From a virus (lineage: Duplodnaviria > Caudoviricetes): a stretch of 64,000 nucleotides of DNA. A model generated the notes under the pieces. It saw only the letters and a list, made by a program, of their open reading frames with translations, made no database searches and was not told the origin of the DNA. This document shows, in pieces, positions 1 to 686 of the stretch (its first letter is position 1; the number at the start of each line of letters is the position of its first letter). The stretch spans positions 18,490 through 82,489 of IMG/VR virus record IMGVR_UViG_3300021400_001610; one strand, 5' to 3'. Position numbers and translations under genes: made by a program.

Positions 1-177
1 ATAGAATGTGTCTTTGATTTCAAATTCTTTTCCACTTCCTTTTCTTTCCTCGAAAGCTTCGAAATCATTTAAGATACAATCGAAAGCATAAGGGCATCCA
101 TGACCATTAGACGTGGCACATTTCTTACAAACAGAACTATTTTTTGTGACCTCGATTAAATAATCATATAAATACAT
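1..177 (-). CDS. small Cys-containing hypothetical protein (runs off window start)
   Basis: Manually translated MYLYDYLIEVTKNSSVCKKCATSNGHGCPYAFDC...; RBS GAAAGGGG upstream of ATG at 177. Confidence 0.5.
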   Translation of the reverse strand, partial: MYLYDYLIEVTKNSSVCKKCATSNGHGCPYAFDCILNDFEAFEERKGSGKEFEIKDTFY

Positions 178-200: not shown

Positions 201-380
201 TTAATTACAAATTGCTCTCCACGGTTTATCATCATGATTAATTTCCCAATGACAAGGGGCGGGTCCACTTAATATACAGTAATTTTCAAAATCTCTTAAA
301 GGACAAGTGGCACATGTTCCTTGTTCTTTGCATACTTCTTTAATTATTTCAAGTGCTTTCAAAATTTTTTCTTTTTCCAT
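201..380 (-). CDS. 59-aa Cys-rich hypothetical protein
   Basis: Manually translated MEKEKILKALEIIKEVCKEQGTCATCPLRDFENYC...; RBS GGGAG upstream; below ORF-track cutoff. Confidence 0.6.
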   Translation of the reverse strand: MEKEKILKALEIIKEVCKEQGTCATCPLRDFENYCILSGPAPCHWEINHDDKPWRAICN

Positions 381-423: not shown

Positions 424-514
424 TGGTGGAGATGATGAGGAGTCGAACCTCACGCACCAATAGGTACTTATTTCCCTGTAAGAGGGGTTGCCGTTATTCT
501 TACTTTCCATCCCC
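424..514 (-). ncRNA. tRNA-like / tmRNA-TLD-like 91-nt RNA with Ala identity elements
   Basis: Acceptor stem GGGGAUG/CAUCUCC with G3.U70, discriminator A, encoded CCA, T-arm UGAGG-UUCGACU-CCUCA; own promoter TTGACA(556-551)-17-TATTAT; no canonical D/anticodon arms. Confidence 0.65.
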
Positions 515-686
515 TTGTTGTATCTATATAATACCATAGTATTATACGATTGTCAACTCCTTTTTATAAAGTTTTAATTTTCTGACAATTATATCGGCCC
601 GGGCGGGCGCCCGCATCGTCTAATAACGATATACGATATGCTCCGATGAAAAGATGGGAGCACCGACTTGGATGCTCCCGATTGGG

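What the first reader, a model, noticed from the sequence alone, without database searches (positions are those of the whole stretch)
424..514. 91-nt mini-tmRNA / tRNA-Ala mimic with its own promoter
Seen: the minus strand reads GGGGAUG...UGAGG-UUCGACU-CCUCA-U-CAUCUCC-A-CCA. This gives a full 7-bp acceptor stem with G3.U70 and A73, an encoded CCA and a canonical T-arm, a few nt after a TTGACA-17-TATTAT promoter. The ~50-nt middle does not form a normal D-arm or anticodon arm (alternative helices are GUAAGA/UCUUAC, CCCU/AGGG and AAUA/UAUU), and there is no room for a tag ORF. Known: G3.U70 is the AlaRS identity element of tRNA-Ala and tmRNA, and these ends resemble Firmicute tmRNA ends as I recall them. 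Inference: an alanylatable RNA that cannot decode or tag could sequester SmpB, EF-Tu or AlaRS, release stalled ribosomes without tagging, or act as a decoy for tRNA-targeting defence nucleases.
Basis: partly seen in the sequence, partly recalled or inferred. Interest (0 to 1): 0.78.

Follow-up and report, generated by a model that had tools for sequence, protein, structure and literature searches.

The report
Anticodon-less alanine tRNA mimic, phage
This uncultured phage of a gut or rumen Firmicute carries, behind its own strong early promoter, a real 91-base gene for an RNA that keeps the alanine-accepting top half of a tRNA but has no anticodon arm, so it can probably be loaded with alanine but cannot read codons. 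It is not a miniature tmRNA of the known phage type, and what it does is untested.

Summary
Window 424-514 (-) encodes a 91-nt RNA with these features:
- a 7-bp acceptor stem carrying the full bacterial alanine identity set (G2-C71, G3.U70, G4-C69, A73);
- an encoded CCA;
- a canonical T-arm;
- a TTGACA-17-TGnTATTAT promoter 13 nt upstream.

ARAGORN and Rfam call nothing there. No stem with a 7-nt loop exceeds 3 bp, so the RNA cannot decode.

The RNA plus promoter recurs as a sharply bounded module in three gene contexts (five contigs, two sequence variants). It is better conserved than its surroundings. Four complete relatives lack it.

The "mini-tmRNA" reading fails its tests:
- The Rfam tmRNA model scores the element 20.4 bits, against 18.7 for a true phage tRNA-Ala.
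- A model of the DS6A-type "TLD-only" tmRNA scores 72 family members 37-115 bits, but this RNA only 19.5, which is within the ordinary tRNA range.
- The D-loop motif, the P2 helix and the GGAC motif are absent.

Best reading: a non-decoding tRNA(Ala) top-half mimic, made early and cut out of an operon transcript. It probably acts as a decoy or sponge for a factor that reads tRNA acceptor ends. The target is unknown. A cis-acting processing element is the main rival.

Earlier notes of this scan report similar anticodon-less alanine mimics in other phages. I rate it a new variant of a known kind, of moderate interest.

The parts
424..514 (-). 91-nt tRNA(Ala)-like RNA gene with no anticodon arm. 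RNA position p corresponds to window coordinate 515-p.
   Evidence: Sequence read. RF00023 gives a global match at 20.4 bits, E = 9.6e-8 in the 82-kb record. tRNA-Sec is the best family of the tRNA clan at 20.4 bits. The same RNA occurs in L002, L232, L233 and L235 at 96.7-100% identity.
508..514 (-). Acceptor stem, 5' strand GGGGAUG (RNA 1-7).
   Evidence: It pairs with 428-434 and includes G3.U70.
424..434 (-). Acceptor stem 3' strand CAUCUCC (434-428), discriminator A73 (427) and encoded CCA (426-424).
   Evidence: It matches the bacterial alanine identity set A73, G2-C71, G3.U70, G4-C69 listed in PMC9976931.
436..452 (-). T-arm: 5-bp stem UGAGG/CCUCA with loop UUCGACU. U435 is an extra nucleotide that can extend the stem (G62.U80) or the acceptor (G8.U80).
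   Evidence: Type B RNA in L033 has UGGGG/CCCCA at the same place, a change on both sides that keeps the pair.
454..467 (-). Hairpin H2, GUACC-UAUU-GGUGC, directly 5' of the T-arm. It sits where a class II variable arm would, and its 4-nt loop cannot decode.
   Evidence: Present in the minimum-free-energy and centroid folds of both variants. The Rfam tRNA-Sec alignment places it as the variable arm.
478..503 (-). Hairpin H1: the 6-bp helix GUAAGA/UCUUAC encloses a 14-nt loop with ACGGCA, a D-arm-like GG. The competing helix CCCU/AGGG (486-483 with 477-474) is mutually exclusive with it.
   Evidence: The minimum-free-energy fold picks CCCU/AGGG in the window variant and H1 in the L002 variant. 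The three substitutions between the variants do not discriminate between the two helices.
528..556 (-). Sigma-A-type early promoter TTGACA-17-(TG)n-TATTAT. A weaker overlapping one lies at 570-541.
   Evidence: The -35 to +1 core is identical in L002 and L235, and the 60 nt upstream of the RNA are 90-97% identical across the three contexts.
596..614 (-). GC-rich core (GCCCGGGC type) that marks the upstream border of the cassette.
Evidence: Identity between contexts falls to 61-73% from about here upstream.
656..679 (-). Intrinsic terminator of the preceding gene (ORF 1046-687), which isolates the RNA's transcription unit.
201..380 (-). First downstream ORF (59 aa, Cys-rich, unknown function), co-transcribed with the RNA because no terminator lies between them.
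   Evidence: PHROG 9264, unknown function.
1..177 (-). Start of the second downstream ORF. It is 124 aa in the full record. The operon terminator lies outside the window at L001 856-873.
   Evidence: No Pfam or PHROG match.

Best explanation
Window 424-514 (-) is a genuine phage gene for a non-decoding tRNA(Ala)-like small RNA.

Anatomy. It keeps the acceptor/T-arm 'top half' of a tRNA: a 7-bp stem with G2-C71, G3.U70 and G4-C69, then A73, an encoded CCA, and a canonical T-loop. The D and anticodon arms are replaced by an idiosyncratic body of about 55 nt. That body has one D-arm-like hairpin with a GG loop and one short hairpin beside the T-arm.

Expression (inferred). Host sigma-A RNA polymerase transcribes it from a near-consensus early promoter. 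It is the first element of an RNA + 2-ORF operon in a region of small promoter-driven cassettes resembling a host-takeover module. It is released like a tRNA, by RNase P at G1 and by 3' cutting and trimming to the CCA. Host AlaRS would be expected to charge it, because alanine identity lies wholly in the acceptor stem.

Function (inferred). With no anticodon arm it cannot read codons. I therefore propose that it acts in trans as a mimic, decoy or sponge for a factor that reads tRNA acceptor ends. Candidates are AlaRS or EF-Tu, an enzyme that uses Ala-tRNA, or a host toxin or nuclease aimed at the CCA end or acceptor stem.

It is not a member of the DS6A-type TLD-only tmRNA family.

Shown here: the anatomy, the promoter, the operon layout, the recurrence as a module, the absence of an anticodon arm, and the failed family membership. 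Inferred: processing, charging, and action as a decoy.
For: Anatomy and alanine identity:
- The anatomy is read directly from the sequence.
- It matches the published bacterial alanine identity set (PMC9976931).

Non-decoding:
- ARAGORN finds no tRNA and Rfam finds none.
- My enumeration of every closing pair around a 7-nt loop in RNA positions 9-62 finds no stem longer than 3 bp.

Promoter and operon:
- The promoter matches 11 of 12 positions and has an upstream TG.
- No terminator lies between the RNA and the two ORFs. The operon terminator is at L001 873-856.

Module recurrence:
- Five contigs, three different gene contexts.
- Identity between contexts: RNA 96.7-100%, the 60 nt upstream 90-97%, flanks 61-75%.
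- In L232 the RNA has 0 changes in 91 nt while its promoter has 5 in 60. The chance that all 5 fall in the promoter is about 0.01 (my calculation).
- The three RNA substitutions fall in loops, or keep a pair (C29U gives U.G; G8A gives A-U with U80).

Phage type:
- Large phage with a terminase, a portal and NrdD.
- The nearest cultured portals are from Bacillus and Enterococcus phages of 120-166 kb, at 24-30% identity.

Parallel cases:
- Other phages carry their own irregular alanine-acceptor RNAs inside tRNA arrays (L033, L140, L256).
- Earlier notes of this scan report the same kind of RNA elsewhere (leads, not evidence).
Against: - There is no expression data.
- Only two sequence variants exist, so there is no covariation test of the body and no test of selection on G3.U70.
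- The high identity of the module could reflect recent cassette exchange rather than constraint.
- Four complete relatives do without it, so it is dispensable.
- No partner protein is conserved next to it.
- The possible 13-bp acceptor/T stack (7+6 or 8+5) might impair EF-Tu binding.
- The decoy target is unspecified.
Confidence: 0.5

Rival explanations
1. Cis-acting processing or stability element. The tRNA-like fold is a portable 5' leader, like plant-mitochondrial t-elements, tRNA punctuation or mascRNA. It recruits RNase P and 3' tRNA-processing enzymes to define or protect the 5' end of the downstream early mRNA. The released RNA is a by-product.
For: - The RNA is always the first element of the transcript and is always followed by an ORF with no terminator between them.
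- In L002 and L232 the Shine-Dalgarno sequence starts within about 8 nt of the CCA.
- The promoter + RNA block travels as one unit in front of different ORFs.
Against: - A processing signal needs neither G3.U70, A73, G2-C71 and G4-C69 nor an encoded CCA, yet all of them are intact.
- The many other cassettes of the same early region manage without such a leader.
- tRNA-mRNA co-transcripts are ordinary for trans-acting tRNAs, so the lack of a terminator does not discriminate.
Confidence: 0.2
2. TLD-only mini-tmRNA. It would be a tag-less tmRNA tRNA-like domain, like that of mycobacteriophage DS6A, that binds SmpB and inhibits or diverts host trans-translation.
For: - The ends are tmRNA-like, and RF00023 matches globally with E = 9.6e-8.
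- There is a published precedent: the DS6A 'TLD only' RNA. A similar molecule inhibits tmRNA, perhaps by titrating SmpB (PMC4131195; PMC11915505).
- Such genes are abundant in viral contigs from the same sample series.
Against: - RF00023 gives 20.4 bits, under the 47-bit cut-off and no better than a real tRNA-Ala at 18.7 bits, whereas DS6A scores 43.2.
- Model R1 of the DS6A type scores 72 members 36.8-115 bits, ordinary tRNAs 29 bits or less, and this RNA 19.5.
- The RNA lacks the GG(U)UUCGAC D-loop analogue.
- It lacks a P2 helix closing next to the T-arm.
- It lacks the GGAC motif that is near-invariant in the family.
Confidence: 0.12
3. Decayed relic. A tRNA-Ala or tmRNA-derived gene whose body has degenerated, carried along with an active promoter cassette without a function of its own.
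For: - Distribution is narrow and sporadic: five contigs, two variants, absent from four complete relatives.
- The body has no recognisable homologue. Alignment z-scores against other irregular RNAs are below 1, and the next-best R2 hits fall in the tRNA range.
Against: - The acceptor stem, T-arm, T-loop consensus, discriminator and CCA are all perfect while the body is unrecognisable. That is not the pattern of uniform decay.
- The RNA is at least as conserved as its own promoter and far more than its flanks.
- It occupies first position behind one of the strongest promoters of the region.
Confidence: 0.1
4. An irregular but decoding tRNA, such as an allo-tRNA-like or tRNA-Sec-like suppressor or a quadruplet decoder, that standard finders miss.
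For: - tRNA-Sec is the best Rfam clan member, at 20.4 bits.
- A 13-bp acceptor/T stack, a 6-bp D-type stem and a variable-arm-like hairpin recall tRNA-Sec and allo-tRNAs.
- Allo-tRNAs with G3.U70 are charged by AlaRS and occur in phages and rumen Clostridia (PMC5389517).
Against: - No stem longer than 3 bp closes a 7-nt loop anywhere in the body.
- The best candidate, CCC/GGG around UCUUACA, has C33 and C37 instead of U33 and R37 (read).
- The score is far below the tRNA-Sec cut-off of 47 bits, and ARAGORN is silent.
Confidence: 0.03

Closest known systems
TLD-only (tag-less, 'CDS-less') tmRNA of mycobacteriophage DS6A (JN698994 28478-28560; PMC4131195, PMC11915505), and the large family of the same type that I found in viral contigs
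   Same: - Phage-encoded RNA of about 80-90 nt.
- GGGG... acceptor stem with G3.U70, and A73.
- Canonical T-arm.
- No anticodon and no tag reading frame.
- Plausibly alanylatable and non-decoding.
   Different: DS6A-type RNAs have features this RNA lacks:
- a short D-loop analogue, GG(U)UUCGAC;
- a covarying 7-bp P2 helix capped by a small hairpin;
- GGAC before the T-arm.

Scores also separate them. This RNA scores 19.5 bits where family members score 37-115. Its body is two unrelated hairpins. SmpB binding is therefore not expected on the same grounds.
tRNA-Ala and the tRNA-Ala acceptor/T minihelix (alanine identity set; PMC9976931)
   Same: G2-C71, G3.U70, G4-C69, A73 and CCA, a 7-bp acceptor stacked on a T-arm, and a GG-containing loop that could form the elbow.
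   Different: No 4-bp D-stem with a normal loop, no anticodon arm, one extra nucleotide between the T-stem and the acceptor strand, and 91 nt instead of 76. It is not called by ARAGORN or Rfam.
Irregular tRNAs: bacterial tRNA-Sec (8/5) and allo-tRNAs (8/4, 9/3), some with G3.U70, found in phages and rumen Clostridia (PMC5389517)
   Same: A non-7/5 acceptor branch is possible (13 bp as 7+6 or 8+5). There is a long D-type stem and a variable-arm-like hairpin next to the T-arm. G3.U70 sits in an otherwise non-alanine scaffold.
   Different: Allo-tRNAs and tRNA-Sec keep a working anticodon arm and decode. This RNA has none.
tRNA-like elements cut out of longer transcripts: mascRNA from MALAT1, plant-mitochondrial t-elements, and phage T4 stable RNAs C and D of the tRNA cluster
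   Same: A tRNA-shaped, non-decoding element embedded in a longer transcript and presumably released by tRNA-processing enzymes.
   Different: Those elements are not reported to carry a complete alanine identity set with an encoded CCA. None shows sequence similarity here. The mascRNA model gave only 13.6 bits, and on the type B RNA rather than this one.

Membership tests
tmRNA / TLD-only tmRNA (DS6A type) | 7-bp acceptor stem with G3.U70, A73 discriminator, 3' CCA | tested here: met
   Read. The same is invariant in 72 of 72 family members of alignment A5, though partly because the search patterns imposed it.
tmRNA / TLD-only tmRNA (DS6A type) | T-arm with a 5-bp stem and a GGUUCGANUCC-type loop | tested here: met
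tmRNA / TLD-only tmRNA (DS6A type) | Stem-less D-loop analogue of about 10-14 nt with the GG(U)UUCGAC motif directly after the acceptor stem | tested here: not met
   The window RNA has 40 nt (GAAAGUAAGAAUAACGG...) with no UUCGAC. The family consensus is shown.
tmRNA / TLD-only tmRNA (DS6A type) | P2 helix whose 3' strand joins the T-arm through GGAC/GAC | tested here: not met
   In the family all 7 P2 pairs covary and A-C before the T-stem is invariant. The window RNA has a local 5-bp hairpin followed by G.
tmRNA / TLD-only tmRNA (DS6A type) | Covariance-model score above that of ordinary tRNAs | tested here: not met
   RF00023: 20.4 bits (cut-off 47), against 18.7 for a true tRNA-Ala and 43.2 for DS6A. 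R1: 19.5 bits, against 36.8-115 for members and 29 or less for tRNAs.
tmRNA / TLD-only tmRNA (DS6A type) | Binds SmpB | not testable with these tools
   No RNA-protein docking or assay is available. It needs a gel shift with a DS6A-type RNA as positive control.
Canonical decoding tRNA (RF00005 / ARAGORN) | Cloverleaf with a 4-bp D-stem and a 5-bp anticodon stem closing a 7-nt loop (U33, R37) | tested here: not met
   No ARAGORN call and no Rfam hit at gathering score. Enumerating all 7-nt loops gives stems of at most 3 bp (read).
tRNA-Sec / allo-tRNA (irregular acceptor branch) | 8/5, 8/4 or 9/3 acceptor/T branch together with a working anticodon arm | tested here: not met
   A 13-bp branch is possible (G62.U80 or G8.U80; G8A in L002 keeps the latter pair), but there is no anticodon arm. 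The tRNA-Sec model gives 20.4 bits against a cut-off of 47.
AlaRS substrates (alanine identity) | A73, G2-C71, G3.U70, G4-C69 in an acceptor helix | tested here: met
   Sequence against the identity table in PMC9976931. Actual charging is not testable here.
Cis-acting tRNA-like processing elements (t-elements, tRNA punctuation) | tRNA-like fold contiguous with an mRNA on one transcript, cleaved by RNase P/Z | tested here: inconclusive
   Co-transcription is implied by the lack of a terminator before L001 873-856. Cleavage itself was not testable.

The most novel reading that the evidence does not exclude
The RNA is one instance of a broad, undescribed class of phage 'acceptor-arm decoys'. These would be alanine-chargeable tRNA top halves without anticodons that have arisen repeatedly, with unrelated bodies, in different phages, some inside tRNA arrays and some behind early promoters. 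They would act in trans on the host. One route is to soak up defence toxins that attack tRNA 3' ends or acceptor stems, such as nucleotidyltransferase, pyrophosphokinase or acetyltransferase toxins. Another is to divert AlaRS, EF-Tu or Ala-tRNA-dependent enzymes. Either would be a counter-defence or takeover principle distinct from both phage tRNAs and mini-tmRNAs.
Probability: 0.15. Interest if true: 0.8.

Novelty: new variant of a known kind. Interest (0 to 1): 0.5.

Why it matters
Phage tRNAs are currently explained by codon usage or by escape from anticodon nucleases. Tag-less tmRNA has been noted once, in phage DS6A. An RNA that keeps only the chargeable, factor-binding half of tRNA-Ala, under a strong early promoter, fits neither explanation.

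If it is charged and acts in trans, it would point to host processes that phages manipulate through the acceptor end of tRNA. It would also give a simple handle for finding the host target: one 91-nt RNA with a G3.U70 to G3-C70 control.

The side result may matter more for annotation. DS6A-type mini-tmRNAs are common and well structured in uncultured phages, yet they fall below Rfam's tmRNA cut-off.

Tried and rejected
1. Standard detectors. ARAGORN, Rfam at gathering score and Rfam in E-value mode gave only sub-threshold hits to tRNA-Sec and tmRNA. A MicC hit on the opposite strand over the AT-rich promoter (30.8 bits against 90) I treat as chance.
2. Copy of a host gene. No species-representative bacterial genome has the 3' 26-mer. 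Genomes with the looser end pattern are mostly full-length tmRNAs of Chloroflexota, Veillonella and others, with different T-stems.
3. Cultured phages. No blastn match for the element, for type B or for a DS6A-type RNA.
4. Divergent copies in 23 related phage records. None found by blastn, by RF00023 (only ordinary tRNAs) or by my own model R2.
5. Homology of the body to other irregular alanine-acceptor RNAs (type B, L140, L256). Alignment scores are no better than shuffles, with z from -0.5 to 0.6. R2 scores type B 32.7 bits, against 26 or less for tRNAs. The shared CUUACAG heptamer is therefore not evidence of common descent. It is also simply the anticodon-loop or D-arm sequence of ordinary tRNAs.
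6. Partner proteins. The neighbouring ORFs have no Pfam family and only unknown-function PHROGs, and they differ between contexts.
7. attP remnant. Rejected, because both acceptor strands and a correctly oriented promoter are present.
8. Small protein (ORF 537-415, 40 aa). Rejected, because its start codon lies inside the -10 region and has no ribosome-binding site.
9. Expression evidence.
10. The MAFFT alignment of mini-tmRNAs (A1) was too poor for RNAalifold. I replaced it with a model-guided alignment (A5).

Full report
**What is there.**
- The window is the 3' 64 kb of an 82.5-kb IMG/VR virus record, estimated about 70% complete. Its GC content is about 34%.
- The record encodes a large terminase, a portal, NrdD, a RecJ-like exonuclease and a DnaB-like helicase.
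- The nearest cultured portals are at 24-30% identity, from Bacillus and Enterococcus phages of 120-166 kb and from gut phages.
- This, the consensus sigma-A promoters and the AGGAG ribosome-binding sites point to a large lytic phage of a gut or rumen Firmicute. That is an inference.
- The first 16 kb of the window is an array of small cassettes on the minus strand. Each has a terminator, a GC core, a strong promoter and a small ORF.

**The element.**
- The acceptor stem has 7 bp: G1-C72, G2-C71, G3.U70, G4-C69, A5-U68, U6-A67, G7-C66. It is followed by A73 and CCA.
- The T-arm is UGAGG / UUCGACU / CCUCA.
- One extra U lies between the T-stem and the acceptor strand. It can pair with G62 or with G8, which gives a possible 13-bp stack.
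- The body (RNA 8-62) contains a 6-bp helix, GUAAGA/UCUUAC, around a 14-nt loop with ACGGCA. A competing helix, CCCU/AGGG, excludes it.
- A firm 5-bp hairpin with a UAUU tetraloop sits one nucleotide before the T-arm.
- I checked every possible closing pair of a 7-nt loop in the body. The longest stem is 3 bp, and that loop has C33 and C37. The RNA cannot decode.
- ARAGORN and Rfam call nothing there.
- The acceptor stem carries the whole bacterial alanine identity set: A73, G2-C71, G3.U70, G4-C69 (PMC9976931).

**Is it more than chance?**
- The bare stem geometry occurs 0.33 times per shuffled window, so geometry alone proves nothing.
- With the TTCGA T-loop added, the expectation falls to about 3e-4.
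- The tmRNA model gives E = 9.6e-8 for the whole record.
- The stronger evidence is that the element recurs.

**Recurrence and conservation.**
- The same RNA occurs in one other viral contig (L002) and in three metagenome contigs (L232, L233, L235). Only two sequence variants exist, differing at G8A, C25U and C29U.
- These five copies lie in three different gene contexts.
- Identity between contexts:

| Segment | Identity between contexts |
|---|---|
| RNA (91 nt) | 96.7-100% |
| 60 nt upstream (promoter) | 90-97% |
| next 70 nt upstream | 61-73% |
| 60 nt downstream | 62-75% |

- Other DNA shared by the two phages is 66-87% identical.
- In L232 the RNA is unchanged while its promoter has five substitutions. 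The chance of that split is about 0.01 by my calculation.
- The three RNA substitutions lie in loops or keep a pair.
- The promoter + RNA block is therefore a discrete, portable and well-kept module.
- It is also sporadic. Four complete relatives (portal 77-85% identical) and 18 partial ones lack it by blastn, by RF00023 and by my model R2. Those relatives carry large arrays of ordinary tRNAs, including a normal tRNA-Ala.

**Transcription unit.**
- The promoter TTGACA-17-TGnTATTAT (556-528) ends 13 nt before G1.
- No terminator follows the RNA. Two small Cys-rich ORFs of unknown function (59 and 124 aa) follow, and then a strong terminator lies just outside the window at L001 873-856.
- In L002 and L232 a different or shifted ORF begins within about 20 nt of the CCA.
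- The RNA must therefore be cut out of an operon transcript, as tRNAs are. That is an inference.

**Is it a mini-tmRNA?**
- The literature has one precedent. [quoted passage not shown]
- I located the DS6A element at JN698994 28478-28560. It is unannotated in the record and scores 43.2 bits with RF00023.
- Two capped pattern scans of viral contigs then turned up many RNAs of the same build.
- A single-sequence covariance model of one of them (R1) scores 72 distinct sequences at 36.8-115 bits. DS6A scores 59.5 and ordinary tRNAs 29 or less.
- On the model-guided alignment, 96.4% of cells pair, against 41-56% when the 3' partners are slid. All seven P2 pairs covary.
- Against this family the window RNA scores 19.5 bits, inside the tRNA range.
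- RF00023 gives it 20.4 bits, no better than the 18.7 bits of a genuine tRNA-Ala from a related phage.
- It lacks the GG(U)UUCGAC D-loop analogue, the P2 helix and the GGAC junction.
- No bacterial species representative has its 3' 26-mer.
- The tmRNA resemblance therefore reduces to what tRNA-Ala and tmRNA have in common. Membership is tested and not met.

**Relatives of its own kind.**
- A second RNA, type B (89 nt), has the same acceptor stem and T-loop and a compensated T-stem. It sits between tRNA-Tyr and tRNA-Met in the tRNA arrays of three other viral contigs, and ARAGORN does not call it either.
- Further irregular alanine-acceptor RNAs of 91-109 nt turned up in other phages.
- Their bodies do not align with this one better than shuffles do, and R2 finds no remote homologue.
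- They look like parallel inventions rather than one family, with a caveat: my scans imposed the alanine-type ends.
- Earlier notes of this scan describe several such 'anticodon-less alanine tRNA mimics' in other phages, one of them behind an early promoter in a ruminant-gut phage. I treat these as leads that agree with my reading, not as evidence.

**How it most likely works.**
- Shown: a promoter-driven, modular and conserved RNA gene with a chargeable tRNA-Ala top half and no decoding capacity.
- Inferred: release by RNase P and 3' trimming, and alanylation by AlaRS, whose recognition needs only the acceptor helix.
- Inferred: action in trans as a mimic or decoy of tRNA acceptor ends early in infection. 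The target is unknown. Candidates are AlaRS or EF-Tu, enzymes that use Ala-tRNA, or host toxins and nucleases aimed at the CCA end or acceptor stem.
- I give this 0.5 overall. Most of that weight rests on the first two steps.

**Rival readings.**

| Reading | Confidence |
|---|---|
| Cis-acting leader that recruits tRNA-processing enzymes to shape the downstream mRNA | 0.2 |
| SmpB-titrating mini-tmRNA | 0.12 |
| Functionless relic | 0.1 |
| Irregular decoding tRNA | 0.03 |

- The cis-leader reading is consistent with the position at the head of the transcript and with the module's portability. It does not explain the intact alanine identity set and the CCA.

**Novelty and verdict.**
- Non-decoding tRNA-like phage RNAs are known in principle: the DS6A TLD-only tmRNA, and allo-tRNAs with G3.U70.
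- This one is a new variant. It has alanine-type ends on a body that fits neither tmRNA nor any tRNA class, and it sits in an early-gene cassette rather than a tRNA array.
- Evidence is purely computational and the family is tiny. The interest is moderate.

Noticed in passing
L150 3678-3758(-), L228 3860-3941(-), L274 6877-6958(+), L313 12917-12997(+), L237 1501-1583(+) (DS6A), and about 70 further loci: DS6A-type tag-less mini-tmRNA (TLD-only) genes are abundant in uncultured phages. They score 36.8-115 bits with a single-sequence model, and all 7 P2 pairs covary. They fall below Rfam's tmRNA cut-off (DS6A scores 43.2 against 47), and DS6A's own GenBank record does not annotate the element. 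The papers I could read name only DS6A.
   Followed up: yes
L033 2759-2847(-), L034 749-837(-), L035 5643-5731(-): An 89-nt RNA (type B) with the same GGGGAUG/CAUCUCC acceptor stem, A73, CCA and T-loop as the window RNA. It has a D-arm-like hairpin (GAGU/ACUC) and no anticodon arm. It sits between tRNA-Tyr and tRNA-Met in large phage tRNA arrays, and ARAGORN does not call it.
   Followed up: partly
L140 3276-3366(-); L256 6026-6121(-); L276 8438-8534(-); L138 9419-9527(-); L254 859-958(-): Further irregular RNAs of 91-109 nt with alanine-type acceptor ends and bodies that are neither tRNA-like nor DS6A-like. Several lie in tRNA arrays, and L256 comes from a sample that also yielded relatives of this phage.
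   Followed up: no
L239 3157-3236(+) and at least 10 further contigs of phages of about 135 kb (L250, L261, L288, L310): An 80-81-nt tRNA-like gene with a GGGGAUG acceptor stem, a normal D-arm and an odd, enlarged anticodon region. Most copies have no encoded CCA.
   Followed up: no
window 424-620 and its counterparts in L002, L232, L233, L235: The promoter + RNA unit has sharp borders at the GC core upstream and right after CCA-UA downstream. Three different gene neighbourhoods flank it, so early-region cassettes are exchanged at these seams.
   Followed up: partly
G000 355-1013 (upstream of the window); L093, L094, L095, L102 in relatives: The record begins with tRNA-Lys(UUU), tRNA-Ile(UAU) and tRNA-Gln(UUG), probably the remnant of an array cut by the contig end. 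Complete relatives carry arrays of 10-15 or more tRNAs per 3-kb locus, including tRNA-Ala(UGC).
   Followed up: no
window 514-633 (+): A sub-threshold MicC match (30.8 bits against 90) on the strand opposite the promoter region. I take it as a chance hit in AT-rich DNA.
   Followed up: no
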